Sequence record: NZ_LR134463.1
DNA length: 64,000 nucleotides
Source: a plasmid
Strand: one strand, 5' to 3'
Position numbers and translations under genes: made by a program. Shown in pieces: positions 15,767 through 36,344 of this stretch (its first letter is position 1; the number at the start of each line of letters is the position of its first letter). The notes below the pieces were generated by a model that had not been told where the DNA came from, searched no databases, and saw only the letters and a list, made by a program, of their open reading frames with translations.

Positions 15767-17310
15767 CCGGCGAGCGCGGCCCGCGCGGCCCCCGTGGCCG
15801 CCGCGGCGACCTCCGGAATCAGGGAGAGCCGCGTGCGGCGCTCGAGCAGGTCCGCCTCGGTGATCGCGCCCTCGACGACGGCACCGAAGACCAGCTCCGC
15901 GCCGGTGACCTCAGTACCCGCGGCGACCGGCGCGGCGAGAGCCGGATCGGTCGCGCCGAGCGCCACCACGGCGGAGGCCTCGGTGCCGTAGGCGCGGACC
16001 AGCCGCTCGGGGGCGTCGATGCGCCGCAGCGCGTCCCGCGTCGCGGCGCCCACCAGGGGGAGCGTCGTGGTGACGCACGGGCCGGCAGGTAGGCCCGACG
16101 TCGCCAGCGCGGCGTCCACCGCGTCCTCCGCCATCCGCCGGTACGTCGTGAGCTTGCCACCGACGACCGTCACCAGGCCGTCGCCGCGGGTGAGCACCGC
16201 GTGCTTGCGGGAGACGTCCGCGGTCCGTCCGGCGCCCGAATCGAGGAGCGGGCGCAGGCCGGCGAAGGTGCCCACCACGTCCTCGCGGGTCAGCGGCGTG
16301 CCGAGGGCGAGGTTCACCGTCGCGAGGAGGAAGTCGATCTCGTCGTCCGAGGGCGTCGGCACGTCGGGGAGCGGGCCGTCGGCCTCCTCGTCCGTGAGGC
16401 CCACGTAGACCCGCCCGTCCGGCTGCGGCAGCGCGAAGACGTACCGCCCGAACGCGCCGGGAACGGGCACCGTCAGGCCCGCAGTGAGCCCGCCGAAACT
16501 CTCCTGCCGGAGGACGAGGTGCGTGCCGCGGCTCGGGCGCAGCGAGATCGCCGGGTCGACGGTGCCCGACCACACGCCGGTCGCGTTGATCACGACCTTC
16601 GCCCGGACGGTGACCGAGTGGCCCGTCAGCCCGTCGGTGACGGTCGCCGCGGTGCCGGTGACCTGCGAGGCGGTGCAATGCGTGAGGATCGTCGCGCCGT
16701 GGCCGGCGGCGGTCCGGGCGATGCCGACCGTGAGCCGGGCGTCGTCGGTGAGCTGTCCGTCCCAGTTGAGGAGCCCGCCGCGCAGGCCCGTGCGGCGCAC
16801 CGTCGGGGCCATGGCGATGACCTCTCCTGCGGAGATCCGGCGGGAGCGGGCGAGTTCGGACGACGGCGTGCGGGCGGCGAGGCGCAGCGCATCGCCCGCG
16901 AGGAAGCCGACGCGGGTGAGCGCGGCGTCCCGGCGCCGGACGTCGCCGAGCAGCGGCACGACCTGCGGCAGGGGGCGGGTCAGGTGCGGCGCGATCACGC
17001 GGATCAGTGCGTCGCGCTCCACGGCGCTCTCGTAGGCGATGCCCACGGCGCCCGAGGCCAGGTACCGCAGGCCTCCGTGCACCAGTTTCGACGACCAGCG
17101 GCTGGTGCCGAAAGCGAGGTCGTGCTTCTCCACCAGCGCGACGCGCAGCCCGCGGCTCGCGGCGTCGAGCGCGACGCCGGTCCCGGTGACGCCGCCGCCG
17201 ATGACCAGCACGTCGACCGACGGGTCGGCCGCCAGCGCGGCGAGGTCGGCGGCGCGGCGGGCGGCCGAGAGCCGTGTGGCCGGATCGATGGTTCCGACGG
17301 TCGCCGTCAC
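15760..17310 (-). CDS. glpD: FAD-dependent glycerol-3-phosphate dehydrogenase
   Basis: N-terminal '[53 protein letters not shown]' GlpD signature; 516 aa; start overlaps TetR stop. Confidence 0.85.
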
Positions 17311-17915
17311 GGCGCGAGGTACCGGTCGAGGAGGTCGAAGAGCTGGGCGTCGAGAAGATCGGCGGACTCGGTGAAGACCGGCCCGGTGAGCGCCGACGAC
17401 CAGGCGAGCTGCAGCACGACGGCGGCGAGCTCGGCGGGCTCTCCGGCGCGGATGCTGCCGTCGGCCTGCCCGGTGGCGATCCCGCCGGTGATCGCCTCGA
17501 GCTGGGCGCGCGAGGTGCGGCCGGTGCGGTGCAGCAGGTAGGGCATGAGGAACTCGGGGTCGAGCTCGACGATGCGGCGCAGCAGCGGGTGCGAGCGCGC
17601 CGCGGCGGTCACGTGCACGACGGTCCGCGCGATGGTCTCGCGGCCGGTGGCACCGTCGAACAGGCCCATCGAGGAGAGGGCGGCCACGAACTCGCGGGTG
17701 GTGACCGCGGCGGCCAGGGCCTGCACGTTCGGGTAGCGGCGGTAGAGGGTGGCGCGGGAGACCTGCGCGGTGCGGGCGACGTCGGCCATCGTGGTGCGGC
17801 GGATCCCGATGGTGGCCATCAGGTCGCGCGCGGCATCGAGGATCAGCTCGTCGTCGACGGCGTTGGCGGGGCCGCGGGGGGCCGACCCCCGGGGATTGAG
17901 ATCCTGCGACATCAT
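17307..17915 (-). CDS. TetR-family transcriptional regulator
   Basis: HTH 'RRTTMADVARTAQVSRATLYRRYPN'; 202 aa; co-oriented and overlapping with glpD, divergent from FAD-oxidase/DagK. Confidence 0.8.
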   Translation of the reverse strand: MMSQDLNPRGSAPRGPANAVDDELILDAARDLMATIGIRRTTMADVARTAQVSRATLYRRYPNVQALAAAVTTREFVAALSSMGLFDGATGRETIARTVVHVTAAARSHPLLRRIVELDPEFLMPYLLHRTGRTSRAQLEAITGGIATGQADGSIRAGEPAELAAVVLQLAWSSALTGPVFTESADLLDAQLFDLLDRYLAP

Positions 17916-17930
17916 GTGTACAAATGTATC

Positions 17931-19520
17931 ATGACTTCGTCCGAGGTGGATCTGCCCGTCGTCGCCTTCGAGCCCGGCCGCTGGGGTGACCCCGCGAACC
18001 CCATGCACCTGTCCGACTCGGTGCTCGGCGCGCTCACCATGCTCGGCATCGACGGCGGCCCGGGGGAACCGGAGCAGCCCTTCCTCATGCCCTCCCGCGT
18101 CTCCGGCCGCGCCCTCTCCGCCCTGCAGAAGACCGGTGTGACGGTCGCCACCGACGACGCTACCCGGCTCGGCCACCTGCGCGGCTTCTCCACGCCGGAC
18201 CTGCTCAAGTACCGCGCCGGCGACACCTCGGACGCGCCGGACGCGGTCGTGACCCCGACGTCGGCCGAGCAGGTCGCCGCGGTGCTGGCCGTCTGTGCGG
18301 CGAAGGACCTCACGCTGAGCCCGTTCTCCGGCGGCACCTCCGTCACGGGCGGCCTCGCACCCGAGCGGACGCGCCCCGTCGTCGCGCTGGACCTGCGCGG
18401 CCTCACCGGGCTGATCGATCTCGACGCCGTCTCCCAGATCGCCACGCTCGCCGCCGGCACCCGCCTGCCCGAGGCCGAGCGGCTCCTCGCCGAACACGGC
18501 TACGAGCTCGGCCACTTCCCGCAGTCCTACGAGGGCGCCACCGTCGGCGGGTGCGCCGTGACCCGCTCCGCCGGCCAGTCCTCCATCGGCTACGGCCGGT
18601 TCGACGAGATGGTCGTCGGGCTCACCGTCGCGACGCCGCAGGGCGTCGCCGAGATCGGCACCGCGCCCAAGTCCGCCGCCGGCCCGGACCTGCGGCAGCT
18701 GTTCCTCGGGTCCGAGGGCGTCTTCGGCGTCGTCACCGCCGTCCGCGTGCGGGTGCACCCCGTCCCGACGGTCCGCCGCTTCTACGGCTGGCGGTTCCCC
18801 GACTTCGCGGCCGGTGCCAACGCCATGCGGGTGCTCGCGCAGAGCTCCGTCCGCCCGACGGTGCTGCGCCTGTCCGACGAGGCCGAGACCGGCCTCAACC
18901 TCGCGAACCCCGGCGCGGCGGGCAAGGCTGCGGTCGGCGGCTGCCTCATGGTCGTAGGCTTCGAGGGCGACGAGCCCGACGTCGACTGCCGCGACGGCTA
19001 CGTCTCGGCGCGCCTGATCGAGCTGGGCGGCGAGTTCCTCGGCGAGGAGCCGGGGGAGGCCTGGCGCGCCGGCCGGTTCCGCGGCCCCTACCTCCGGGAT
19101 CCGCTCCTCGACGCGGGCGCGCTGGTCGAGACGCTGGAGACCGTCACCTTCTGGTCGAACGTCGAGCGGCTCAAGGCCGACGTGACCGCCGCGCTCACCG
19201 GCGCGCTCGGCGAGCAGGGCACCCCCGCCGTGGTCATGTGCCACATCTCGCACGTCTACCCGACGGGCGCGTCGCTGTACTTCACGGTGATCGCGAAGGC
19301 CCTGCCCGATCCGCTCGCCCAGTGGGGCGCCGCGAAGACCGCCGCCAACGCCGCGATCCGCGCCGCCGGTGCGTCCATCACGCATCACCACGCCGTCGGC
19401 ACCGACCACCGCGCCACCTACCTGGAGGAGATCGGCGACGTACAGGTCACCGCCCTGCGCGCGATCAAGGACGCCCTCGACCCGCAGGGCGTGCTCAACC
19501 CCGGGATCCTGCTCCCGTGA
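17931..19520 (+). CDS. FAD-binding oxidoreductase (FAD-linked oxidase family, AGPS/GlcD-like)
   Basis: FAD_binding_4 domain 'VVTPTSAEQVAAVLAVCAAKDLTLSPFSGGTSVTGG', 'LRQLFLGSEGVFGVVTAV'; ATG at 17931 only 15 bp from divergent TetR start. Confidence 0.8.
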   Translation: MTSSEVDLPVVAFEPGRWGDPANPMHLSDSVLGALTMLGIDGGPGEPEQPFLMPSRVSGRALSALQKTGVTVATDDATRLGHLRGFSTPDLLKYRAGDTSDAPDAVVTPTSAEQVAAVLAVCAAKDLTLSPFSGGTSVTGGLAPERTRPVVALDLRGLTGLIDLDAVSQIATLAAGTRLPEAERLLAEHGYELGHFPQSYEGATVGGCAVTRSAGQSSIGYGRFDEMVVGLTVATPQGVAEIGTAPKSAAGPDLRQLFLGSEGVFGVVTAVRVRVHPVPTVRRFYGWRFPDFAAGANAMRVLAQSSVRPTVLRLSDEAETGLNLANPGAAGKAAVGGCLMVVGFEGDEPDVDCRDGYVSARLIELGGEFLGEEPGEAWRAGRFRGPYLRDPLLDAGALVETLETVTFWSNVERLKADVTAALTGALGEQGTPAVVMCHISHVYPTGASLYFTVIAKALPDPLAQWGAAKTAANAAIRAAGASITHHHAVGTDHRATYLEEIGDVQVTALRAIKDALDPQGVLNPGILLP

Positions 19521-24924: not shown

Positions 24925-26727
24925 GTGCTGCGCACTCACCTGGCCGGATCGTTGCGTGCGGAGGATGCCGGCACCGTCGTCACCCTCGCGGGCTGGGTGG
25001 CGCGTCGGCGTGACCACGGCGGAGTGATCTTCATCGACCTGCGCGACAGCTCCGGCGTCGCGCAGGTCGTCTTCCGCGAGTCGGACGTCGCCGAGCAGGC
25101 GCACCGGCTGCGGTCCGAGTACTGCGTGCTGGTGACCGGCACCGTCGAGAAGCGGCCCGAAGGCAGCGAGAACCCGAACCTGCCGTCGGGCGCCATCGAG
25201 GTCAACGTGACCGAGCTGACGGTGCTCAACGAGTCGGCGCCGCTGCCCTTCCAGCTCGACGAGGAGCCGGGCGAGGAGGCGCGCCTGAAGTACCGCTACC
25301 TGGACCTGCGCCGCGAGGCCCCCGCCGCCGCGATCAAGCTGCGCAGCCAGGCGAACGCCGTGGCGCGCAACATCCTGGCGCTCAACGACTTCACGGAGAT
25401 CGAGACGCCGACGCTGACCCGGTCCACCCCGGAGGGCGCCCGTGACTTCCTGGTGCCCGCGCGCCTGCGTCCCGGCACCTTCTACGCGCTGCCGCAGAGC
25501 CCGCAGCTGTTCAAGCAGCTGCTCATGGTCGCGGGCATGGAGCGGTACTACCAGATCGCGCGCTGCTACCGCGACGAGGACTTCCGCGCCGACCGCCAGC
25601 CCGAGTTCACCCAGCTCGACATCGAGATGAGCTTCGTGGACCAGGAGGACGTGATCGCCCTCGGCGAGCAGATCGTCAAGGCCCTCTGGTCGCTCATCGG
25701 TCACGAGATCCCCACCCCGATCCCGCGCCTGACCTACGCCGAGGCGATGCGCCGCTTCGGCTCGGACAAGCCGGACCTGCGCTTCGGGCTCGAACTGGTC
25801 GAGTGCACCGAGTACTTCAAGGACACCCCGTTCCGCGTCTTCCAGGCGCCGTACGTCGGTGCGGTCGTCATGCCGGGCGGCGCGAGCCAGCCCCGTCGCC
25901 AGCTCGACGCCTGGCAGGAGTGGGCCAAGCAGCGCGGCGCCCGCGGCCTCGCGTACGTGCTGATCGGCGAGGACGGCGAGCTCACCGGCCCCGTCGCCAA
26001 GAACCTCTCGGACGACGAGCGCGCAGGCCTCGCGGCCCACGTGGGTGCCCAGCCGGGCGACTGTGTCTTCTTCGCCGCCGGCCCCACCAAGACGATGCGC
26101 GCCCTGCTCGGCGCGGCCCGCGGCGAGATCGCCGACAAGCTGGCCCTGATCAAGGACGGCGACTGGGCCTTCACCTGGGTCGTCGACGCCCCGCTGTTCG
26201 AGCCCGCGGACGACGCGACCGCCTCGGGCGACGTGGCCGTCGGCGACGGCGCCTGGACGGCCGTGCACCACGCCTTCACGAGCCCCAAGCCGGAGTCGAT
26301 CGACACCTTCGACACCGATCCGGGCAGCGCGCTGGCCTACGCCTACGACATCGTCTGCAACGGCAACGAGATCGGCGGCGGCTCGATCCGTATCCACCGC
26401 AAGGACGTTCAGGAGCGCGTGTTCGCGATCATGGGCATCGACGAGGAGCAGGCCCGCGAGAAGTTCGGCTTCCTCCTCGACGCCTTCTCCTACGGCGCCC
26501 CGCCGCACGGCGGCATCGCGTTCGGCTGGGACCGCGTGGTCTCGCTGCTGGCCGGCGCGCCGTCGATCCGCGAGGTCATCGCTTTCCCGAAGTCGGGCGG
26601 CGGCGTCGACCCGCTGACCGACGCGCCCGCGGCCATCACGGTGCAGCAGCGCCGCGAGTCGGGCATGGACGCGAAGCCCAAGAAGCCCGAGCAGGCCGCC
26701 GCGGACCAGGGCGCCGAGCAGAAGTAG
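24925..26727 (+). CDS. aspS: aspartate--tRNA ligase
   Basis: OB-fold anticodon domain + class II catalytic core, '[29 protein letters not shown]'; 600 aa. Confidence 0.9.
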
Positions 26728-26731
26728 CCGC

Positions 26732-27664
26732 GTGCGCCACATCCGGGTGATCAGCCCGCCGGACCGCACCGACGCGGTGCTCGCGCTGCTGCGGTCGCGG
26801 CCGGGGGTCACCCACATCACGTTGGCGCTCGGTGCGTCGCTCGTCCCCGCGGGCGACGTGCTCAGCGCGGAGGTCACCCGGGAGGCCGCGCACCGCGTGC
26901 TGCAGGGCCTCGAGGAGCTCGGCATCCCCGCCGACGGCGCCGTCACCGTCTCGACGTTGGACACGGTCCTCTCCGATGCCGCGGATGCGGCGGAGAAGGC
27001 CGTGCCCGGCGACCCGTCGGACGCCGTGGTCTGGGAGGAACTGACCGCCCGGACCCGCGAGGAGTCGACGCTCAACTCGACCTTCCTCGCCTTCCTGGTG
27101 CTGGCGGTGCTGCTGGCCGCGGTCGGCGTGGTGACGAACTCGCCGGTCACGGTGGTCGGCGCGATGGTCGTGGGGCCCGAGTTCGGGCCGCTCGCAGCGA
27201 TCGCGGTGGCGCTCGCCACCCGTCGTCTGCACTTCGCGGTGCGCCCGGTGATCGCGCTGTCCGTCGGCTTCCCCGTGGCGATGTTGTGCACCTGGCTGGG
27301 CGCCGAGGCGGCGCTCGCCGCCGACCTGTTCACCGTCGACGTCCTCGACTCCGCGGGCCAGGTCGACTTCATCTACCGCGTCGGGCCGTTCTCGCTCATC
27401 GTCGCGCTCCTCGCGGGCGCCGCGGGCATGATCTCGATGGTGACCGCGAAGTCGGCCGCCCTGGTGGGCGTCTTCATCTCGGTCACGACGGTGCCCGCGG
27501 CGGGATACGCCGTCGTGGCCGCGACGGTCGGGGAGTGGCAGCGCGCGCTCGAATCGACGGGGCAGCTCGCGATCAACCTCGTCGGCATCGTCGTCGCGGG
27601 GGTCCTGGTGCTGGTGCTGCGGCCCGCGGCGTGGCGCGACATGCGGGAGCAGGTGGGCCTGTGA
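26732..27664 (+). CDS. DUF389-family membrane protein (Rv2571c-like)
   Basis: 310 aa, Ala/Val-rich multi-TM C-terminal half; GTGA overlap with downstream ATP-grasp gene. Confidence 0.7.
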   Translation: MRHIRVISPPDRTDAVLALLRSRPGVTHITLALGASLVPAGDVLSAEVTREAAHRVLQGLEELGIPADGAVTVSTLDTVLSDAADAAEKAVPGDPSDAVVWEELTARTREESTLNSTFLAFLVLAVLLAAVGVVTNSPVTVVGAMVVGPEFGPLAAIAVALATRRLHFAVRPVIALSVGFPVAMLCTWLGAEAALAADLFTVDVLDSAGQVDFIYRVGPFSLIVALLAGAAGMISMVTAKSAALVGVFISVTTVPAAGYAVVAATVGEWQRALESTGQLAINLVGIVVAGVLVLVLRPAAWRDMREQVGL

Positions 27665-30135
27665 GCATCGACGCGCTCCGCGACCTCGACGCGGCCGGCC
27701 TGCGCCGGCTGTCGGCGCGGGTCCGCGGCCTCATCGACGACGAGGGCATCACCTACAACGCCCTCGACGCGCTGCCCGGCGTCCACGATCCGGCGATTCC
27801 CGGCGCCGCGACCGAGCCGGGGCCGTGGCGCCTCGACCCGTTGCCCGTCCTCCTCGGTGCGGAGGAGTGGGACGCCCTCGCGCGCGGCGTCGCGCAGCGC
27901 TCCCTGCTGCTCGACGCGGTGCTCAAGGACTTCTACGGCGAACAACGCACCCTCCGCACCGGCACCGTCCCGCCCGAGCTGCTGTTCGCGCATCCCGGCT
28001 TCATCCGGCGGGCCGTCGGCGTCCCGTCGCCCGGGCCGCGTTCGCTGTTCCTGCACGGCGTCGACCTCGGCGAGGCCGCCGGCGACGAGGTGAGCGGGTA
28101 CGTCGCGGTCGCCGACCGCACCCAGGCCCCCTCGGGCGTCGGCTACGCACTCGCCGACCGCCGGGTGACCTCCCGCGCTCTGCCGCGCGAGCTCCGGTCC
28201 GAGACCCCGCGGCCCGTCGCCTCGTTCGCGGCGGCGCTGCGCGTCCAGCTGGTCGAGGCCGCCCCGCCCGGCGTGGACGATCCGACCGTCGTCGTCCTCA
28301 GCCCGGGCTCGTTCTCCGAGACCGCCTTCGACCAGGCCTACCTGGCCTCGGTCCTCGGCTTCCCGCTCGTCGAGGCGTCCGACCTGACGGTGCGCGACGG
28401 AGGCGTGTTCATGCGTTCGCTCGGCCGGATGAAGCGCGTCCACGTGATCCTGCGCCGCGTCGACTCCGAGTTCTCCGACCCGCTGGACCTGCGCACCGAC
28501 TCGCAGCTCGGCGTCGTCGGCCTGGTGGAGATGATGACCCGCGGGGCCGTCACCGTCGTCAACACGCTCGGCTCGGGCGTCCTCGAGAACCCGGCCCTGC
28601 ACGCCTACCTGCCGCAGCTGTGCCGCGACCTGCTCGACGAGGACCTGCTGCTGCCGTCCACGCCGACCCTGCACGCCGCGACCCCGGCCGGACGCGCCGC
28701 CGTCGACGGCCCGCTCGACGACCGGCTCGTCCTCAACTTCGCCACGGGGGAGCGCTTCGCCGGCGGGGCGCTCACCGCCGACCGGGCCGACGACCTGCGG
28801 CAGCGGATCGCCGCCGACCCGACGGTCTGGTGCATCAAGACGCTCGTGCCGTTCACCGGCCGGCCCGCCGTCGAGCGCGGCACCGTGACGGAACGGGGCT
28901 TCGCCCTGCGCGCCTTCGCGCTCGCGCAGGAGTCCGGGTACACGGTCCTGCCGGGCGGGCTCGGCCAGGTGCTCGTCGACGGTGCGGACGCCGCGCTGCT
29001 GCACTCGTCGGCCGCTCGCGACGTGTGGGTGCCCTCGTCGGAGGACCTGCGCGCCCCCGCCCGGGTGGCGACCGCGCCCCGGTCGGGCCGGATCGGCGCC
29101 TCCGCCAGCGGCCCCGTGGCGACGCCCCGCGTGCTCTCGGACCAGTTCTGGATCGGCCGGTACGCGGAGCGCGCCGAGGCGACCGTGCGGATGCTGTCGA
29201 TGGCGCACGACCGGAGCCGCGAGTTCCGGCACCGCCCGTGGCAGGCGGGGGCCGACGTGCTGCAGCCGCTGCTCGACGCGGTGGTCGCGGCCACCGTGAC
29301 CGAGGAGCTGGGGCCGATCGTCGTGGAGGGCACCGAGCAGACCGACGTGCTCGCGCGGTTGCGCCGCCTCACCCTCGATGTGGACGTGCCGGGCAGCGTC
29401 GCGCACTCCGGCGTGCGCCTGCGGGCGTGCCTGCGGGCCGTCCGCGACCAGATGTCCACCGATACCTGGCTGGTGCTCAGCGGCGCCGAACGCTCGCTCG
29501 GGCGGCTCGCCGCCGACCGCGACGACGCGGGGGAGCAGCTCGACCAGACCCTCGGGGAGGTCCTGGTCTCGCTGCTGGCGTTCGCCGGCCTCGGCCGGGA
29601 GTCGCTGGTGCAGGACCCGGCGTGGCTCATGATGGACGCCGGCCGCAGGATCGAGCGCGCGCTGCAGCTCACCGCGGTGACCCGCGCGATGGTGGTTCCC
29701 GAGAATCCCGCCGAGATCGAGGCGGGCCTCCTCGACGCGTACCTCGTGACCTGCGAGTCCGCCGTCACCTACCGGCGTCGGCACCGTGCCGTGCTTCGCG
29801 CGGGCGCCGCCGTCGACCTGATGTTCCTCGACGCGACGAATCCGCGCTCGCTCGTCTCCGCGCTCACGGCACTCTCCGCCGACCTGGCGCAGCTGCCCGA
29901 CGAACTGCGCAGCGCGACCTGCGAGCGCACCGTCGGTGAGGTCCTCGCGCAGCTGGGACGGTTCGACCTCGACGACGCGGAGACGATCGTCGACGGGCGC
30001 CGTTCGGAGATCGAGGTGCTGCTGGACGCCGTCGACGAGGGCGTGCGAGACGTGTCGGACGTGCTGGAGCGGACCCGCTTCGCGCCGCCCGCGGCGGCCC
30101 GTCCGATCTGGGTGGGGGTGCAGTCGTGGGGCTGA
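27661..30135 (+). CDS. fused circularly-permuted ATP-grasp (type 2) + alpha-E domain protein (Rv2567-like)
   Basis: 824 aa from GTG 27661; N-terminal CP-ATP-grasp region then alpha-helical C-terminal region; upstream 125 codons of the ORF are Arg/Gly-rich read-through. Confidence 0.65.
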   Translation: MSIDALRDLDAAGLRRLSARVRGLIDDEGITYNALDALPGVHDPAIPGAATEPGPWRLDPLPVLLGAEEWDALARGVAQRSLLLDAVLKDFYGEQRTLRTGTVPPELLFAHPGFIRRAVGVPSPGPRSLFLHGVDLGEAAGDEVSGYVAVADRTQAPSGVGYALADRRVTSRALPRELRSETPRPVASFAAALRVQLVEAAPPGVDDPTVVVLSPGSFSETAFDQAYLASVLGFPLVEASDLTVRDGGVFMRSLGRMKRVHVILRRVDSEFSDPLDLRTDSQLGVVGLVEMMTRGAVTVVNTLGSGVLENPALHAYLPQLCRDLLDEDLLLPSTPTLHAATPAGRAAVDGPLDDRLVLNFATGERFAGGALTADRADDLRQRIAADPTVWCIKTLVPFTGRPAVERGTVTERGFALRAFALAQESGYTVLPGGLGQVLVDGADAALLHSSAARDVWVPSSEDLRAPARVATAPRSGRIGASASGPVATPRVLSDQFWIGRYAERAEATVRMLSMAHDRSREFRHRPWQAGADVLQPLLDAVVAATVTEELGPIVVEGTEQTDVLARLRRLTLDVDVPGSVAHSGVRLRACLRAVRDQMSTDTWLVLSGAERSLGRLAADRDDAGEQLDQTLGEVLVSLLAFAGLGRESLVQDPAWLMMDAGRRIERALQLTAVTRAMVVPENPAEIEAGLLDAYLVTCESAVTYRRRHRAVLRAGAAVDLMFLDATNPRSLVSALTALSADLAQLPDELRSATCERTVGEVLAQLGRFDLDDAETIVDGRRSEIEVLLDAVDEGVRDVSDVLERTRFAPPAAARPIWVGVQSWG

Positions 30136-31043
30136 GTTTCTCCCGGCGCACCGAGGACTCCCGGACGCGCCGGTACCGCGTGGTGCACGAGACCACCTAC
30201 AGCTACGACGCGGAGGTCACCTCCAGCTTCGGCCGCTGCTACCTCTCACCGCGGGAGCTGTCCGATCAGCGGGTCGACGAGCACGCCATCACCGTCGGTC
30301 CCGAACCGTCGGACCGCTCCGAGGGCGTCGACGCGTACGGCAACACCGACACCTACTTCCACGTGACCACGCCGCACACCCGGCTGCTGGTGCGCGGCGA
30401 GTCCGTCGTCGAGGTCGACCCGCTGGACCGCGCGATCACCGACGAGGGACCGGCCCTCGCGCCGTGGGAGCTCGCCCGGCCCGTCGGCGAGGCGGGGGCG
30501 CTCGCCGCGCAGTACCGCCTCGACCAGCGGCCGGCCGAGATCGACGACGCCGTGCGCGCCTACGCCGACGCGATCTTCACGCCGGGGAAGCCGCTGGTGG
30601 AGGCCGTCGAGGAGCTGACCACGCGGATCTACACAGATTTCGCCTACAAGTCGGGGGCGACGAACGTCTCGACCCGCGTCGGCACCGTCATGGAGCGGCG
30701 CGAGGGCGTGTGCCAGGACTTCGCGCGCGTCGCGATCGCCTGCCTGCGGTCCAAGGGCCTGGCCGCGCGGTACGTCTCCGGCTACCTCGCCACCGAGCCG
30801 CCGCCCGGTCAGGACCGGGTCGTCGGCGCCGGTGCCACCCACGCCTGGGCGGCCGTGTGGCTGCCCGGCGACGCGTGGCTGCCCTTCGACCCCACCAACA
30901 ACAAGTTCGTCGACGAGCGGCACGTGACCGTCGCCTGGGGGCGCGATTACGAGGACGTTCCACCCCTGCGCGGCGTCATCTACACCGAATCGAAGGGATC
31001 GAAGATCCATGTCTCCGTGGACGTCGCGCCCCTGCCCGACTGA
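30126..31043 (+). CDS. transglutaminase-like cysteine protease domain protein (Bact_transglu_N + TGc core; Rv2569c-like)
   Basis: 'REGVCQDFARVAIACLRSKGLAARYVSGY...HAWAAVW...FDPTNN' Cys-His-Asp triad context; overlaps upstream stop by 10 nt. Confidence 0.75.
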   Translation: MGLSFSRRTEDSRTRRYRVVHETTYSYDAEVTSSFGRCYLSPRELSDQRVDEHAITVGPEPSDRSEGVDAYGNTDTYFHVTTPHTRLLVRGESVVEVDPLDRAITDEGPALAPWELARPVGEAGALAAQYRLDQRPAEIDDAVRAYADAIFTPGKPLVEAVEELTTRIYTDFAYKSGATNVSTRVGTVMERREGVCQDFARVAIACLRSKGLAARYVSGYLATEPPPGQDRVVGAGATHAWAAVWLPGDAWLPFDPTNNKFVDERHVTVAWGRDYEDVPPLRGVIYTESKGSKIHVSVDVAPLPD

Positions 31044-31058
31044 GGTAGGTTGGAACTG

Positions 31059-32165
31059 ATGGTCACCGCGCTGGGGTACGAGACGACGAGGGCGGCTCTC
31101 ACTGCGGTGGAGGGCCTGCTGGGTCGCCGGGTCGGCGCCTCCGTCGACCTGGGCGAACCCGAGGATCTGGGCGGTTCCGGCCGCACGCTGGTGATGCGCG
31201 TGCGGGTGCTGCACAACAATCCGCTGTTGCCCCGTTCCGTCGTGATCAAGCAGCTGCGCGCCGCCGATCACACCGACAAGGACTACTCCGAGGCCTTCGC
31301 CCGTGAGGGCGCCGCGTACAAGTTCGCGACGGCGCTCCCCGTCGACGCCCGGCCGGGCCCGCAGCTCCTCGCCTCCGACGCCGAGGAGCGCATCCTCGTC
31401 CTGCAGGACTTGGGCGAGGGCGAGACGATGGGCGACCTGCTGCGGCGGACGCCGTCGTCGGGTGCGGCCACCGTGCTCTCCGCCTGGGCCCAGGCCCTCG
31501 GTCGCATGCACGCCGGCACCTACGGCCGCGAGCGCGACCTGTCCGTGCTCGCCCGGCGCGAGCACACCGACTCCCGCAACGATCCCGTCGCCGGCGAGGC
31601 CGCTCGTGCCGCCGACGCCGTGCCGGCGGCCGTGGGCGGGGTCGACGAGACCGCCCGCGCCGTGCTCGACGCCGCCGTGGCCCTGTTCACCGAGGGGCCG
31701 TTCCGCGCCTTCAGCCCGTCCGACGTGGGCCCCGACAACACGCACGTCGTGGGCGGCGCCGTCCGATTCCTCGATTACGAGTGGGCGGGATTCCGCGACG
31801 GCGCGCTGGACGTCGCCTACGTGCTGCTGACGTACCCGGACTGCACCGAGGACGGCCACGATCCCGACCTGGACGTCGCGATCGTGGAGGCATGGCGTTC
31901 CGAGGTCGTGCGGTTGTGGCCCCGGCTGGCCGACGACGTGGCGCTCCGTCGCCACGTGACCACCGCGAAGCTGGCGTGGCTCACGCTCGCCACCTACTGG
32001 GCGCTCGGACTCGACTCCGCGAGCCGCATCGACGCCGGCCACCTCGACAGCCTCCCGGCCTGGTCCTACGACGACCTCGCCGCCCGCTGGGACCGGCTGG
32101 CCGCCGCCGACCCGCGCGTGCGCGACTTCGCCGTCGCCGCCGCCGCGAAGGTCCGCACGCTATGA
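31059..32165 (+). CDS. phosphotransferase (APH/choline-kinase-like protein-kinase fold)
   Basis: Catalytic Lys 'SVVIKQL', hinge '[10 protein letters not shown]', catalytic loop '[12 protein letters not shown]', '[10 protein letters not shown]'; ATG 31059 has GAGGTAGG SD 9 nt upstream (ORF-track TTG 31050 less likely). Confidence 0.6.
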
Positions 32166-32190: not shown

Positions 32191-33561
32191 GTGACCGGTT
32201 CCCTGTTCGGCGACGACGGGGACCTCGGAGCGCCACCCGAAGCACCCCCGTCCCGGGGACCGGTCGAGTTCGTCCCCACCCACGCGGGCACCCCGCTCGC
32301 GGTCCGCATGCGGCCCCGCGACCTCGACGAGGTGCTCGGTCAGGAGCACCTGCTCGGCCCCGGGACGCCGCTGCGCCGCCTCATCGACGGTGCCGGCGCG
32401 GCCAGCGTGATCCTCTACGGCCCGCCCGGCACCGGGAAGACGACCATCGCCTCGCTGATCTCGGGCGCGACGGGGCGCCGGTTCGAGGCGCTCTCCGCGC
32501 TCTCGGCGGGCGTCAAGGACGTGCGCGCCGTCATCGAACTGGCGCGCCGCCGCCTCCTCGTCGACGAGCAGACGGTGCTGTTCATCGACGAGGTGCACCG
32601 GTTCTCCAAGGCGCAGCAGGACGCGCTGCTCGCCGCGGTCGAGAACCGGGTCGTGCTGCTCGTCGCGGCCACCACCGAGAATCCCAGCTTCTCCGTGGTC
32701 TCGCCGCTGCTCTCGCGCTCGCTCATCCTCCAGCTACGGCCCCTGGAGCCGTCGCACATCTCGGAGCTCATCGACCGCGCCTTGTCGGACCCGCGGGGCT
32801 ACGACGGTGCGCTGACCATCGCCGACGAGGCCCGCGAGCACCTCGTGCGCCTCGCCGGCGGCGACGCCCGGCGCTCGCTCACCGCCCTGGAGGCCGCCGC
32901 CGACGTCACCCTGGGGGAGGGCGGCAACGAGATCACCCTCGAGGCCGTCGAGTCCAGCATCGACACCGCCGCCGTCCGCTACGACCGCGCGGGTGACCAG
33001 CACTACGACGTCATCAGTGCCTTCATCAAGTCGATCCGCGGCTCCGACGTCGACGCGGCGCTGCACTACCTGGCCCGCATGATCTCGGCGGGCGAGGACC
33101 CGCGGTTCATCGCCCGCCGGCTCGTGGTGCACGCCTCGGAGGACATCGGCATGGCCGACCCGCAGGCGCTGCTCGTCGCCACCGCTGCCGCGCAGGCCGT
33201 GCAACTCATCGGCATGCCCGAGGCGAGACTCGCGCTGGCACAGGCGACGATCCACCTCGCCTCGGCACCCAAGTCCGACGGGGTCGTCGCCGCGATCGGC
33301 GCCGCCATGGGCGACGTGGCCGCGGGCAAGGCCGGCGCCGTGCCGCCGCACCTGCGCGACGGTCACTACGCCGGCGCGGAGAAGCTCGGCAACGCCCAGG
33401 GCTACGTGTACCCGCACCACGTCCCCGGCGGCGTCGCCGCGCAGCAGTACCCGCCCGACGACCTGGTGGGCGTCGACTACTACACCCCCACCGACCACGG
33501 CTTCGAACGCGAGATCGGCCCGCGGGTGACGCGGCTGCGCGGGATACTCAGGCGGAGGTAG
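32191..33561 (+). CDS. rarA: replication-associated recombination protein A (AAA+ ATPase)
   Basis: Walker A '[17 protein letters not shown]', Walker B '[12 protein letters not shown]', MgsA C-terminal domain; GGAGG SD. Confidence 0.85.
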
Positions 33562-33671: not shown

Positions 33672-36344
33672 GTGCAGACCCATGAGATTCGGAAGCGGTT
33701 CACGGACCACTTCGTCAAGGCCGGACACACCCAGGTGCCGAGTGCGTCGCTGGTCCTGAACGATCCGAATCAGCTGTTCGTCATCGCGGGCATGGTGCCC
33801 TTCGTGCCGTTCTTCCTGGGCCAGCAGACCCCGCCGTACGACCGCGCCACGTCGATCCAGAAGTGCGTCCGCACCCTGGACATCGAAGAGGTCGGCATCA
33901 CCACCCGGCACAACACCTTCTTCCAGATGGCCGGCAACTTCAGCTTCGGCGACTACTTCAAGCGCGAGGCGATCCGGTTCGCCTGGTCGCTGCTGACCAA
34001 CCCGGTCGATGAGGGCGGCTTCGGGATGGATCCCGAGCGCCTGTGGTCGACGGTCTACCTCGACGACGACGAGGCCCGCGACCTGTGGCTCGAGGTGGGC
34101 CAGGTGCCCGAGCGCATCCAGCGCCGCGGCATGAAGGACAACTACTGGTCGATGGGCATCCCCGGCCCCGCCGGCCCGTGCTCGGAGATCTTCTACGACC
34201 GCGGCCCCGAGTACGGGGTCGAGGGCGGCCCCGAGGCCGACGAGGACCGCTACATCGAGATCTGGAACCTCGTCTTCATGCAGAACGAGCGCGGCCAGGG
34301 CGGCGGCAAGGAGAACTTCGAGATCCTCGGCGAGCTGCCGAAGAAGAACATCGACACCGGCATGGGCGTCGAGCGCGTCGCCTTCCTCCTGCAGGGCGTC
34401 GACAACGTCTACGACACGGACCTGTTGCGCCCCGTCATCGACCGCGCGCAGGCGCTCACCGGCCAGCGGTACAACGCCGGCGACGCCGAGCACGACCGGC
34501 TCTTCCGCGTGATCGCCGACCACACCCGTACCGCCGTCATGCTCATCCAGGACGGCGTGAACCCCGGCAACGACGGCCGCGGCTACGTGCTGCGCCGCCT
34601 GCTGCGCCGCGTCGTCCGCTCGGCCCGCCTCCTCGGCGCCACGGGCGAGACCATGGGCGACTTCGTCGACACCGTCCTGTCGACGATGTCGCCGTCGTAC
34701 CCCGAGCTCGCCGACGACGCGCAGCGCATCCGCACCGTCGCCACCGGCGAGGAGCAGGCCTTCCTCAAGACCCTCGAGCAGGGCACCACGCTGTTCGGCA
34801 ACGCCGTCGACTCCACCAAGTCGTCCGGCAAGACGGTGCTCTCGGGCGACGACGCCTTCACGCTGCACGACACCTACGGCTTCCCGATCGACCTCACGCT
34901 GGAGATGGCCTCGGAGGCCGGCCTGCAGGTCGACGAGGACGGCTTCCGCGCCCTCATGGCCGAGCAGCGCCAGCGGGCCAAGGACGATGCGAACTCCCGC
35001 AAGTCGGCGCTCGCCGACCTCTCGGTCTTCCGTGAGTTCCTCGACCGCGGTCCCACCGAGTTCACCGGCTTCGACGAGCTGGTCTCCGACGCCCAGGTCC
35101 TCGGCCTCGTCAAGGACGGCGTCCGGGTTCCCGTCGCGCACCAGGGCGACGACGTCGAGATCGTCCTCGACCGCAGCCCCCTCTACGCCGAGGCCGGCGG
35201 CCAGCTCGCCGACATCGGCACCATCACCACCGCCGCCGGCGCACAGATCGTCGTGACCGACGTGCAGCGCGTCGCCAAGACCCTGTGGCGTCACCAGGGC
35301 ACCGTCGCCTCCGGCGAGGTCTCCGAGGGCGACACCGTCACCGTCGCGGTCGACGGCGGCCACCGCCACGGCAGCACCCAGGGCCACTCCGGCACCCACC
35401 TCGTGCACGCCGCGCTGCGCCAGGTCCTCGGCCCCAACGCCGTGCAGGCCGGCTCGCTCAACAAGCCCGGCTACCTGCGCTTCGACTTCCGCTGGTCCGG
35501 CGGCCTCACCGACGACCAGCGCACCGACATCGAGCGCGTCACCAACGAGGCCGTGCAGGCCGACTACGCCGTGAACACGGAGGTCACCGACCTGGAGACC
35601 GCCAAGCAGCGCGGCGCGATGGCGCTGTTCGGCGAGAACTACGGCGACCGGGTCCGCGTCGTCGAGATCGGCGGTCCGTTCTCGATGGAGCTGTGCGGCG
35701 GCACGCACGTCGCCAGCTCGGGCCTCGTCGGCCCCGTCACCGTGCTCGGCGAGAGCTCCGTCGGCTCGGGCGTGCGCCGCGTCGAGGCCTACGTGGGCCT
35801 CGACTCGCAGAAGTACCTCGCCAAGGAGCACGCGCTCGTCTCCGCGCTGTCGAGTTCGCTCAAGGTGCCCTCCGATGAGGTACCGGCCCGCGTCGAGTCG
35901 CTGGTCAGCCGCCTCAAGGACGCCGAGAAGGAGCTCGAGAAGCTGCGCGCGCAGGCCGCGTTGTCGGCGCTGGCCGAGCTCGCCTCGTCGCCCGAGCGCG
36001 TCGGCGCCGTCCGGCTCGTGGCCGCGAAGGCGCCCCAGGGCGTCACCGCGGGCGAGCTCCGCGGCCTGGTCACCCAGCTCAAGGGCCGCCTCGGCGCCGA
36101 GCCCGCCGTCATCGCCCTGTTCGCGGTCGACGGCGACAAGGTGCCGTTCGTGGTGGCCGCCAACGACGCAGCGCAGGACCTGGGTGTCAAGGCGGGCGAC
36201 GTGGTCAAGGCCGCGGCCCCCTCGGTGGGCGGCCGCGGCGGCGGCAAGGCCGACATGGCGCAGGGCGCCGGATCGGACGCCTCCGGGGTCGACGGTGCGC
36301 TCTCCGCGGTCCGGGCCGAGGTCGCGCGGACGGTGGGCGCCTGA
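33672..36344 (+). CDS. alaS: alanine--tRNA ligase
   Basis: 890 aa; class II core '[15 protein letters not shown]', editing domain HxxxH ('[11 protein letters not shown]'), C-terminal DHHA1. Confidence 0.9.

What the first reader, a model, noticed from the sequence alone, without database searches (positions are those of the whole stretch)
27661..32165. Circularly-permuted ATP-grasp/alpha-E + transglutaminase cassette extended by an APH-like kinase
Three genes are chained with overlapping or near-abutting stop/start codons. (i) An 824-aa fusion of a circularly-permuted ATP-grasp (type 2) and alpha-E domain; (ii) a transglutaminase-like cysteine protease; (iii) a protein-kinase-fold phosphotransferase with intact Lys/Asp/Asn catalytic residues. 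The ATP-grasp/alpha-E/transglutaminase triad has been predicted computationally to be a peptide ligation or peptide-tagging system (Mtb Rv2567/Rv2569c-like), but no substrate or product is known. I do not recall a kinase in the mycobacterial version, so it may be a lineage-specific addition. A DUF389 membrane protein is coupled upstream (GTGA overlap) and rarA follows.
Basis: partly seen in the sequence, partly recalled or inferred. Interest (0 to 1): 0.6.

Follow-up and report, generated by a model that had tools for sequence, protein, structure and literature searches.

The report
Peptide-ligase cassette beside an older resident kinase
The three genes are real and correctly identified, but the kinase is an old resident of this chromosomal spot that stays put whether or not the ligase/transglutaminase cassette is there, so it is probably a neighbour and not a new part of the cassette.

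Summary
The window is from a Tsukamurella species. The gene string aspS, DUF389, CP-ATP-grasp/Alpha-E fusion, transglutaminase-like peptidase, kinase, rarA, alaS is present as described, with 15 bp or less between successive genes from DUF389 to the kinase.

The third gene has no Pfam or NCBIfam hit. It is still a confident kinase: the AF2 model has pLDDT 91.8, the best fold and sequence match is ComG (the corramycin peptide kinase), and the Lys, Glu, Asp, Asn and Asp catalytic residues are invariant.

Comparative evidence argues against the reading that the cassette is extended by the kinase:
- **Kinase-anchored genomes:** of 79 loci, 44 have the cassette directly upstream, 3 have a 5-kb insertion between them, and 31 lack the cassette. 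The cassette-less loci form at least 6 separate clades.
- **Pseudonocardiaceae:** the orthologous kinase sits in the same aspS-(DUF389)-kinase-rarA slot with no cassette.
- **Antrihabitans:** the cassette lies elsewhere, with a Zn-peptidase (Peptidase_Mx) and no kinase.
- **Cassette-anchored metagenome loci:** of 64 determinable loci, the gene after the transglutaminase is Peptidase_Mx in 58 and the kinase in 4.

The kinase therefore belongs to the syntenic backbone, and the cassette is the variable insert. The substrates of both remain unknown. Interest is low to moderate.

The parts
24925..26727 (+). aspS (aspartyl-tRNA synthetase). It is the left anchor of the conserved syntenic interval.
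   Evidence: tRNA-synt_2 E 1e-116, tRNA_anti-codon and GAD domains. It is found upstream of the kinase in nearly all related loci and in Amycolatopsis and Kutzneria.
26732..27664 (+). DUF389 membrane protein. It is a variable backbone gene, not part of the cassette.
   Evidence: PF04087 E 1e-27. It is 55% identical to the DUF389 gene that directly precedes the kinase in Amycolatopsis. It lies directly upstream of the kinase in Prescottella and the R. erythropolis group. Its TGA overlaps the GTG of the next gene.
27661..30135 (+). Fusion of a circularly permuted ATP-grasp type 2 domain and an Alpha-E domain (Rv2567-like predicted amide ligase).
   Evidence: CP_ATPgrasp_2 E 1e-113 over residues 62-437, covering the full model; Alpha-E E 4e-56 over residues 489-805. 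PDB relative 3n6x, E 1e-57. It lacks about 40 N-terminal residues that are present in the orthologues P0133 and P0161.
30126..31043 (+). Transglutaminase-like cysteine peptidase (Rv2569c-like).
   Evidence: Bact_transglu_N E 3e-23 and Transglut_core E 6e-21. Cys196 (GVCQDF), His239 (THAWAA) and Asp255 (PFDPTN) are present. PDB relatives 3isr and 6g49.
31059..32165 (+). ComG-like kinase of the APH/choline-kinase fold, substrate unknown. It is a backbone gene adjacent to the cassette.
   Evidence: No Pfam or NCBIfam hit. ComG (8agy) by sequence: E 7e-12, profile E 6.7e-17. AF2 pLDDT 91.8, pTM 0.90. Foldseek best match 8agy, TM 0.67/0.71. Invariant G38-G39-x-G41 (S40 in at least 90% of sequences), K64, E83, D222, N227 and D239 across 48 homologues.
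32191..33561 (+). rarA/mgsA AAA+ recombination factor. It is the right anchor of the interval.
   Evidence: MgsA_C E 6e-66, AAA_assoc_2 and AAA domains. It lies downstream of the kinase in the great majority of related loci with enough downstream sequence.
33672..36344 (+). alaS (alanyl-tRNA synthetase), part of the housekeeping backbone.
   Evidence: tRNA-synt_2c E 5e-186.

Best explanation
The region holds two unrelated units that happen to abut.

(1) A reduced two-gene version of the Mycobacteriales Rv2566-Rv2569c module. An ATP-grasp/Alpha-E fusion is inferred, from the family's chemistry, to activate a carboxylate as an acyl-phosphate and form an amide bond on a peptide or metabolite. A transglutaminase-fold Cys-His-Asp enzyme is inferred to hydrolyse or transfer that bond. 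This window lacks the two other usual members: the Rv2566-like transglutaminase+DUF2126 protein and the Zn_ribbon+Peptidase_Mx metallopeptidase.

(2) A vertically inherited ComG-like kinase that belongs to an older syntenic backbone, aspS-(DUF389)-kinase-...-rarA-alaS, shared with Pseudonocardiaceae. It is inferred to transfer the gamma-phosphate of ATP to a hydroxyl of a small molecule or short peptide. In that scheme Lys64-Glu83 anchor ATP, Asp222 acts as base, and Asn227 and Asp239 bind Mg. Its substrate is unrelated to the cassette.

The cassette is the variable element. It is inserted between DUF389 and the kinase, and has been repeatedly lost or moved. The compact spacing in Tsukamurella probably gives read-through co-transcription of the whole aspS-to-rarA string, not a dedicated cassette+kinase operon.

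Shown here: the domain and fold identities, the catalytic residues and the comparative gene-order pattern. Inferred: the chemistry, co-transcription and functional independence.
For: - **Identity of the parts:**
- **Kinase without cassette:** 31 of 78 determinable kinase-anchored genome loci have no ATP-grasp or transglutaminase within 10 kb. On the kinase tree, which follows genera, these loci form at least 6 separate clades. Two of them (L027/L035 and L058/L065/L066) are nested inside cassette-bearing clades. The catalytic residues stay invariant in cassette-less members.
- **Outgroup:** in Amycolatopsis and Kutzneria the orthologue (36% identity, motifs kept) lies in aspS-(DUF389)-kinase-GDSL lipase-...-rarA with no cassette.
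- **Cassette without kinase:** in Antrihabitans stalactiti the Rv2566-like/ATP-grasp/transglutaminase/Peptidase_Mx module sits at another locus with no kinase. In Antrihabitans stalagmiti and spumae the kinase sits at the aspS locus without the cassette.
- **Cassette-anchored sample:** Peptidase_Mx follows the transglutaminase in 58 of 64 determinable loci and the kinase in 4.
- **Breakable junction:** a 5.1-kb opposite-strand Opp/Dpp-type ABC transporter plus an ArsR/MarR regulator separates the transglutaminase from the kinase in three Tsukamurella genomes.
- **Spacing:** 15 bp only in core Tsukamurella and 46-252 bp elsewhere. The kinase lies 6-7 bp after aspS or 48 bp after DUF389 where the cassette is absent.
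- **Mosaic history:** in T. spumae (L010) the ATP-grasp is 61% identical to the window's but the kinase is 91%.
Against: - Where the kinase follows the transglutaminase, Peptidase_Mx is absent from the locus (0 of 79). Where Peptidase_Mx follows it, the kinase is absent. The two occupy the same slot in a mutually exclusive way, which could reflect functional displacement.
- The closest characterised relative, ComG, phosphorylates a peptide. That would fit a peptide-ligase product.
- In Tsukamurella the 15-bp gap and the lack of a terminator make co-expression likely.
- I could not check whether cassette-less genomes carry the cassette elsewhere, except in Antrihabitans.
- Both samples are biased. 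The kinase-anchored set is the best 80 of at least 516 hits. The metagenome set comes from environmental and host-associated metagenomes that were not de-replicated and are of unknown taxonomy.
Confidence: 0.7

Rival explanations
1. The kinase is a co-opted fourth component. In the Tsukamurella/Gordonia/Rhodococcus clade it has taken the slot held by the Peptidase_Mx metallopeptidase in Mycobacterium-type cassettes. It would phosphorylate the peptide or metabolite made or processed by the ATP-grasp and transglutaminase pair, for example to inactivate, export-tag or regulate it.
For: - Kinase and Peptidase_Mx are strictly mutually exclusive directly downstream of the transglutaminase.
- The adjacency is kept in 44 of 78 kinase-anchored loci across several genera and in a Nocardia sp..
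- The gap is 15 bp with no terminator in Tsukamurella.
- The only solved relative, ComG, is a peptide kinase.
Against: - The kinase predates the cassette at this locus, as shown by the Pseudonocardiaceae loci.
- It is kept with intact catalytic residues in at least 6 clades without the local cassette.
- The cassette relocates without it.
- A 5-kb insertion is tolerated between them.
- Gaps of 150-250 bp in Gordonia and the R. fascians group leave room for a separate promoter.
- A kinase cannot replace a metallopeptidase biochemically.
Confidence: 0.15
2. The kinase is an intrinsic antibiotic- or xenobiotic-inactivating phosphotransferase. It would be like ComG, APH, Mph or Cph, chromosomally fixed in these actinomycetes and unrelated to the cassette.
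For: The closest relative, ComG, is a self-resistance kinase. The fold neighbours include APH(3'), APH(4) and macrolide phosphotransferases. This reading is compatible with independence from the cassette.
Against: - No hit to any NCBIfam model.
- It is strictly vertical and sits in a housekeeping syntenic context in two related actinomycete groups (Mycobacteriales genera and Pseudonocardiaceae). It is not in a biosynthetic cluster or a mobile element.
- Fold neighbours equally include metabolic kinases: choline, methylthioribose and homoserine kinases and PsiK.
- The ComG paper reports that homologues outside corramycin-type clusters did not confer resistance.
Confidence: 0.12

Closest known systems
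Mycobacterium-type Rv2566/Rv2567/Rv2568c/Rv2569c module. It belongs to the ATP-grasp + Alpha-E + transglutaminase-like systems predicted by Iyer et al. 2009, as summarised in PMC6376114.
   Same: - The same ATP-grasp/Alpha-E fusion architecture and the same Bact_transglu_N+Transglut_core partner.
- The same chromosomal interval between aspS and rarA/alaS.
- Function still only predicted (peptide ligation or tagging). In a 2026 preprint, lysate of E. coli expressing Rv2567 made no GABA-trehalose, whereas Rv1722 did.
   Different: - The window lacks the Rv2566-like transglutaminase+DUF2126 gene and the Zn_ribbon+Peptidase_Mx gene. I equate the latter with Rv2568c from gene order and orientation only.
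- The window has DUF389 upstream and the kinase downstream instead.
- Its ATP-grasp lacks about 40 N-terminal residues.
- There is no Anbu proteasome-like subunit, unlike the proteobacterial four-gene operon.
ComG, the corramycin phosphotransferase of Corallococcus coralloides (PDB 8agy/8ahd; PMC10996006).
   Same: It is the only solved structure detectable by sequence (E 7e-12; profile E 6.7e-17). It is the best fold match (TM 0.67/0.71, 23% identity). Both have the bilobed APH-like kinase fold with C-terminal helical additions and the same catalytic-loop and Mg-binding motifs.
   Different: ComG sits in a PKS/NRPS gene cluster as a self-resistance enzyme. This kinase sits in a housekeeping syntenic block and is vertically inherited. 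The catalytic-loop His of HGD is replaced here (SPSD). Conservation of the corramycin-binding region (ComG residues 285-315) was not established.
APH / choline kinase / methylthioribose kinase superfamily (Pfam APH, PF01636).
   Same: Fold-level similarity (Foldseek probability 1.0, TM 0.44-0.56) and the Lys/Glu/Asp/Asn/Asp catalytic set.
   Different: The window protein does not match PF01636 even at E=10. Only a few homologues carry a precomputed PF01636 hit. It is a divergent subfamily of about 214 50%-identity clusters at E<=1e-30.

Membership tests
CP ATP-grasp type 2 / Alpha-E fusion (Rv2567-like) | Full-length match to the CP_ATPgrasp_2 model | tested here: met
   E 9.9e-114, model positions 1-373 of 374. 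PDB 3n6x E 1e-57.
CP ATP-grasp type 2 / Alpha-E fusion (Rv2567-like) | C-terminal Alpha-E domain in the same polypeptide | tested here: met
   PF04168 E 3.8e-56, residues 489-805. All listed orthologues have the same architecture.
CP ATP-grasp type 2 / Alpha-E fusion (Rv2567-like) | ATP-dependent amide-bond ligase activity | not testable with these tools
   Only orthophosphate release from ATP has been reported, for the Yersinia homologue. No substrate is known.
Transglutaminase-like cysteine peptidase (Rv2569c-like) | Bact_transglu_N plus Transglut_core domains | tested here: met
   E 3e-23 and E 5.8e-21.
Transglutaminase-like cysteine peptidase (Rv2569c-like) | Cys-His-Asp catalytic triad | tested here: met
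   Cys196 in GVCQDF, His239 in THAWAA and Asp255 in PFDPTN, read from the translation. The assignment rests on the known motif pattern of the family.
Complete Mycobacteriales four-gene module (Rv2566-like, ATP-grasp/Alpha-E, transglutaminase, Peptidase_Mx) | Rv2566-like transglutaminase+DUF2126 gene upstream | tested here: not met
   No tblastn hit in the 64-kb window. The gene is present in 20 of 79 related loci.
Complete Mycobacteriales four-gene module (Rv2566-like, ATP-grasp/Alpha-E, transglutaminase, Peptidase_Mx) | Zn_ribbon_DZR_6 + Peptidase_Mx gene next to the transglutaminase | tested here: not met
   Absent from the window and from all 79 kinase-anchored loci. Present in 58 of 64 cassette-anchored loci.
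APH/choline-kinase-like kinase fold | Match to Pfam APH (PF01636) or a related profile | tested here: not met
   No Pfam family at E<=10 and no NCBIfam family at E<=0.01.
APH/choline-kinase-like kinase fold | Bilobed kinase fold | tested here: met
   AF2 pLDDT 91.8. 144 PDB matches at E<=0.001; the 50 best listed are all kinases of this superfamily.
APH/choline-kinase-like kinase fold | Catalytic residues: beta3 Lys, alphaC Glu, catalytic-loop Asp and Asn, Mg-binding Asp | tested here: met
   K64, E83, D222, N227 and D239 are invariant in 48 sequences. They align with the ComG motifs.
ComG-like peptide-antibiotic kinase | Significant sequence and fold similarity to ComG | tested here: met
   E 7e-12, profile E 6.7e-17, TM 0.67/0.71.
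ComG-like peptide-antibiotic kinase | Conserved corramycin-binding C-terminal region (ComG residues 285-315) | tested here: inconclusive
   The phmmer alignment reaches ComG residue 298 and the profile alignment only residue 279. Residue-level conservation was not assessed.
ComG-like peptide-antibiotic kinase | Location in a biosynthetic gene cluster as a self-resistance gene | tested here: not met
   The neighbours are aspS, DUF389, rarA and alaS. The synteny is the same in the sampled Mycobacteriales genera and in Pseudonocardiaceae.
Acquired aminoglycoside/macrolide resistance kinase | Match to curated resistance-kinase models, or a mobile context | tested here: not met
   No NCBIfam hit. 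The kinase tree follows genera and the locus is syntenic.
Kinase as an integral member of the ATP-grasp/transglutaminase cassette | Co-occurrence: the kinase is present only with the cassette and moves with it | tested here: not met
   31 of 78 kinase loci lack the cassette. Pseudonocardiaceae loci have the kinase alone. The Antrihabitans cassette lacks the kinase. 58 of 64 cassette loci carry Peptidase_Mx instead.
Kinase as an integral member of the ATP-grasp/transglutaminase cassette | Conserved tight or overlapping junction with the transglutaminase gene | tested here: not met
   15 bp only in core Tsukamurella. 46-252 bp in other genera, and about 5.1 kb in L001, L012 and L016.

The most novel reading that the evidence does not exclude
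In the Tsukamurella/Gordonia/Rhodococcus lineage the resident ComG-like kinase has been recruited to the cassette, in the slot where other Mycobacteriales carry the Peptidase_Mx metallopeptidase. The ATP-grasp/transglutaminase product would then be controlled by phosphorylation instead of proteolysis. That would be a new three-enzyme peptide-modification pathway and would give a handle on the unknown substrate of the Rv2567 family.
Probability: 0.12. Interest if true: 0.6.

Novelty: new member of a known kind. Interest (0 to 1): 0.25.

Why it matters
The ATP-grasp/Alpha-E/transglutaminase system is widespread. It has two copies in M. tuberculosis by my recollection, and the Anbu operons of proteobacteria contain it. 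About 17 years after its prediction it still has no known substrate, so any reliably linked extra enzyme would be a useful clue.

This analysis shows that the kinase is not such a clue. The partner that does travel with the cassette in Mycobacteriales is a Zn-ribbon/Peptidase_Mx metallopeptidase, together with the Rv2566-like transglutaminase+DUF2126 protein. That redirects attention to those genes.

It also flags a conserved, Pfam-invisible ComG-like kinase family. The family is fixed next to aspS and rarA in two related actinomycete groups (Mycobacteriales genera and Pseudonocardiaceae), and its substrate is unknown.

Tried and rejected
- **Profile searches on the kinase:** Pfam and NCBIfam gave nothing, even when Pfam was run at E=10. 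Identification had to come from the PDB sequence search and a structure prediction.
- **Terminators and promoters:** the scan found none informative between aspS and rarA.
- **Literature on the cassette:**
  - The Iyer et al. 2009 paper is not held. Its content is cited only through PMC6376114.
  - The search on Rv2566-Rv2569c found no functional study of Rv2567, apart from a negative GABA-trehalose lysate assay.
  - One paper calls Rv2569c a serine protease and never mentions the transglutaminase fold.
- **Failed look-ups:** P0185, P0218 and P0392 are not on record. For Antrihabitans stalagmiti the unlinked position of the cassette therefore rests on contig lengths, plus the A. stalactiti locus L081.
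- **Unavailable library:** the afdb50 fold library could not be used.
- **Hidden kinase in Mycobacterium-type loci:** I considered that the roughly 1.1-kb gap between Peptidase_Mx and rarA might hide a divergent kinase. It encodes DUF3097 instead, and an HMM of the kinase family finds nothing there.
- **Start of the ATP-grasp gene:** I considered that it might start upstream inside DUF389, in the 949-aa ORF. I rejected this because the upstream frame is Arg/Gly-rich nonsense without the YDEL...DG..R..W motif, and NCBI orthologues start at the same Met/Val.
- **Mobile resistance gene:** rejected on synteny and the tree.

Full report
**What is in the window**

The window has 72% G+C. Its proteins are 96-97% identical to those of Tsukamurella asaccharolytica, T. 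ocularis and T. hominis, so it comes from a Tsukamurella species.

On the + strand there is a tightly packed string of genes:

| Gene | Coordinates |
|---|---|
| aspS | 24925-26727 |
| DUF389 | 26732-27664 |
| CP_ATPgrasp_2 + Alpha-E fusion | 27661-30135 |
| Bact_transglu_N + Transglut_core protein | 30126-31043 |
| 368-aa ORF (kinase) | 31059-32165 |
| rarA | 32191-33561 |
| alaS | 33672-36344 |

No terminator-like site lies between aspS and rarA. Third-position GC of the 368-aa ORF is 0.93, typical of real genes here.

**The third gene**

It has no Pfam or NCBIfam hit, even when Pfam was run at E=10. Calling it APH-like was therefore a good guess by eye, not something a routine domain search would return. 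The kinase assignment rests on other evidence.

- *Sequence.* A phmmer search of PDB sequences finds a single relative, ComG, the corramycin phosphotransferase (8agy, E 7e-12). A profile of 48 family members raises this to E 6.7e-17, and ComG is still the only hit.
- *Structure.* An AF2 model built from that alignment is confident (pLDDT 91.8, pTM 0.90). Foldseek against the PDB puts ComG first (TM 0.67/0.71, 23% identity). PsiK, choline and ethanolamine kinases, methylthioribose kinase, TvaE, homoserine kinase, APH(3'), APH(4) and macrolide phosphotransferases follow.
- *Catalytic residues.* Across 48 homologues G38, G39 and G41 of the Gly-rich loop, K64, E83, D222, N227 and D239 are invariant; S40 is present in at least 90%. 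These are the ATP-anchoring Lys-Glu pair, the catalytic-loop Asp/Asn and the Mg-binding Asp of this fold, and they align with the ComG motifs.
- *What ComG does.* It phosphorylates a peptide antibiotic and acts as a self-resistance enzyme inside a PKS/NRPS cluster (PMC10996006).
- *Family size.* The family is modest: 214 50%-identity clusters at E<=1e-30 and 1114 at E<=1e-10.

**Is the kinase part of the cassette? Kinase-anchored view**

I fetched 79 genome loci that encode relatives of the kinase, with 10 kb on each side. I then located the window's neighbouring proteins in them by tblastn.

The kinase lies between aspS and rarA/alaS in essentially every locus with enough flanking sequence. 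The loci divide as follows:
- The ATP-grasp/Alpha-E and transglutaminase genes are directly upstream in 44.
- They are upstream but separated by about 5.1 kb in 3 Tsukamurella genomes.
- They are absent within 10 kb in 31.
- One locus is undeterminable.

The 5.1-kb insertion is an opposite-strand Opp/Dpp-type ABC transporter operon plus an ArsR/MarR-type regulator.

A neighbour-joining tree of the kinases follows genera, so inheritance is vertical. The cassette-less loci fall into at least six separate clades:
- Gordonia spumicola and G. liuliyuniae
- Antrihabitans
- Prescottella
- the R. erythropolis group
- a large Rhodococcus clade
- two small groups (L027/L035 and L058/L065/L066) nested inside cassette-bearing clades

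Catalytic residues are invariant in cassette-less members too.

The 15-bp transglutaminase-kinase gap is confined to core Tsukamurella. Elsewhere the gap is 46-252 bp. Where the cassette is missing, the kinase sits 6-7 bp after aspS (Gordonia) or 48 bp after DUF389 (Prescottella). Tight packing is therefore a property of this chromosomal string, not of a cassette+kinase unit.

**Outgroup**

A more distant family member (P0255) led to Pseudonocardiaceae orthologues.
- In Amycolatopsis sp. QT-25 the order is aspS-DUF389-kinase-GDSL lipase-rarA.
- In Kutzneria viridogrisea it is aspS-kinase-GDSL lipase-...-rarA.

Neither has any ATP-grasp or transglutaminase gene. The Amycolatopsis kinase is 36% identical to the window's over 313 residues and keeps all motifs. 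Its DUF389 neighbour is 55% identical to the window's.

The aspS-(DUF389)-kinase-rarA backbone is therefore older than the presence of the cassette at this site. In the window the cassette sits exactly between two old neighbours.

**Cassette-anchored view**

Homologues of the ATP-grasp fusion and 80 metagenomic loci anchored on it show that the module usually has more genes than in this window. It often starts with an Rv2566-like transglutaminase+DUF2126 protein of about 1150 aa.

In 58 of 64 loci where the next gene can be read, the transglutaminase is followed by a Zn_ribbon_DZR_6 + Peptidase_Mx protein of about 340-360 aa. The kinase follows in only 4, and something else in 2.

In 26 of the 58 the transglutaminase-Peptidase_Mx pair is inverted relative to the ATP-grasp gene and faces aspS. 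From my knowledge of the M. tuberculosis gene numbering, this matches Rv2567(+), Rv2568c(-), Rv2569c(-) ... Rv2572c aspS. That equation is an inference and was not tested.

An HMM of the kinase family finds no member in any Peptidase_Mx-type locus. The gene between Peptidase_Mx and rarA there is DUF3097. Conversely, Peptidase_Mx and DUF3097 are absent from the window and from all 79 kinase-anchored loci.

The clearest dissociation is in Antrihabitans. In A. stalagmiti and A. spumae the kinase sits at the aspS locus with no cassette (L032, L053). In A. stalactiti the Rv2566-like/ATP-grasp/transglutaminase/Peptidase_Mx module sits at an unrelated locus with no kinase (L081). The A. stalagmiti ATP-grasp gene is reported on a 949,225-bp contig, whereas its kinase is on a 994,068-bp contig.

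**Interpretation**

The best-supported reading is that two units abut.
- The cassette is a reduced, two-gene form of the known but biochemically uncharacterised ATP-grasp/Alpha-E/transglutaminase system. It is predicted to ligate and process peptides or metabolites (Iyer et al. 2009, as summarised in PMC6376114). In a 2026 preprint, lysate of E. coli expressing Rv2567 made no GABA-trehalose.
- The kinase is a backbone gene of unknown substrate.

I put this at about 0.7.

The main rival, at about 0.15, is that the kinase was recruited to the cassette in the clade that lacks Peptidase_Mx. Three things keep it alive: the strict mutual exclusivity of kinase and Peptidase_Mx in the slot after the transglutaminase, the peptide specificity of ComG, and probable co-transcription in Tsukamurella. 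Against it stand the kinase's retention without the cassette in many lineages, the cassette's relocation without it, and the tolerated 5-kb insertion.

A third reading, an intrinsic xenobiotic or antibiotic kinase (about 0.12), is compatible with independence from the cassette. It has no direct support beyond the relationship to ComG and APH.

**Limits**
- The kinase-anchored sample is the best 80 of at least 516 hits. It covers mainly Tsukamurella, Rhodococcus, Gordonia and Prescottella.
- The metagenome sample is not de-replicated and has no taxonomy.
- I could not scan whole genomes, so "no cassette" means none within 10 kb, except where another contig could be shown (Antrihabitans).
- No transcript or biochemical data exist for any of these genes in Tsukamurella.

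**Verdict**

The domain calls are correct. The functional "extension" reading is not supported, although it is not excluded. The region is a new member of known kinds, of low to moderate interest (0.25). The useful by-product is that Peptidase_Mx and the Rv2566-like protein, not the kinase, are the partners that travel with the cassette.

Noticed in passing
window 27661-27780 (compare P0133 and P0161): The window's ATP-grasp/Alpha-E protein (824 aa) lacks about 40 N-terminal residues, the motif YDEL..D.DG..R..W. These are present in orthologues of 860-910 aa from T. sp. 8F, Nocardia, Gordonia and Rhodococcus. The short form goes with the DUF389 gene abutting it in a GTGA overlap. The Pfam domain itself is intact.
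   Followed up: partly
L001:4904-10001, L012:4872-10001, L016 (Tsukamurella ocularis CIP111612T, T. strandjordii, T. sp. PLM1): A 5.1-kb block is inserted between the transglutaminase gene and the kinase. It holds an opposite-strand oligopeptide/dipeptide-type ABC transporter (SBP_bac_5, a BPD_transp_1 permease and two ABC ATPases) plus a small ArsR/MarR HTH gene just upstream of the kinase. A peptide importer at exactly this junction is curious.
   Followed up: partly
L010 (T. spumae) compared with L009 (T. pseudospumae): Mosaic history inside the cassette. The kinase is 91% identical to the window's in both genomes. The ATP-grasp is 61% identical in T. spumae, where it comes with an Rv2566-like gene instead of DUF389, against 85% in T. 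pseudospumae. The transglutaminase is intermediate (84% against 93%). This suggests replacement of the left part of the cassette by recombination.
   Followed up: no
L082-L161 and L001-L079: Zn_ribbon_DZR_6+Peptidase_Mx and the kinase are strictly mutually exclusive in the position after the transglutaminase gene: 58 loci against 4 among the cassette-anchored loci, and 0 of 79 kinase-anchored loci have Peptidase_Mx. DUF3097 accompanies Peptidase_Mx-type loci and is absent from kinase-type loci.
   Followed up: partly
window 31059-32165 and its family (A2): A conserved family of confident kinase fold is invisible to Pfam and NCBIfam for this member, with no hit even when Pfam was run at E=10. 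Public names range from 'kinase' to 'Kae1-associated kinase', 'Bud32' and 'thiamine kinase-like', which are probably over-annotations.
   Followed up: yes
literature: PMC11081392: The M. tuberculosis orthologue of the transglutaminase-like protein (Rv2569c) is described as a secreted serine protease that cleaves E-cadherin. The words 'transglutaminase' and 'catalytic' do not occur in the main text of that paper, whereas the family has a Cys-His-Asp papain-like core.
   Followed up: no
window 17205-19520 (+): An FAD-linked oxidase (FAD_binding_4 + FAD-oxidase_C) carries about 340 N-terminal residues that match no Pfam family at E<=1e-5.
   Followed up: no
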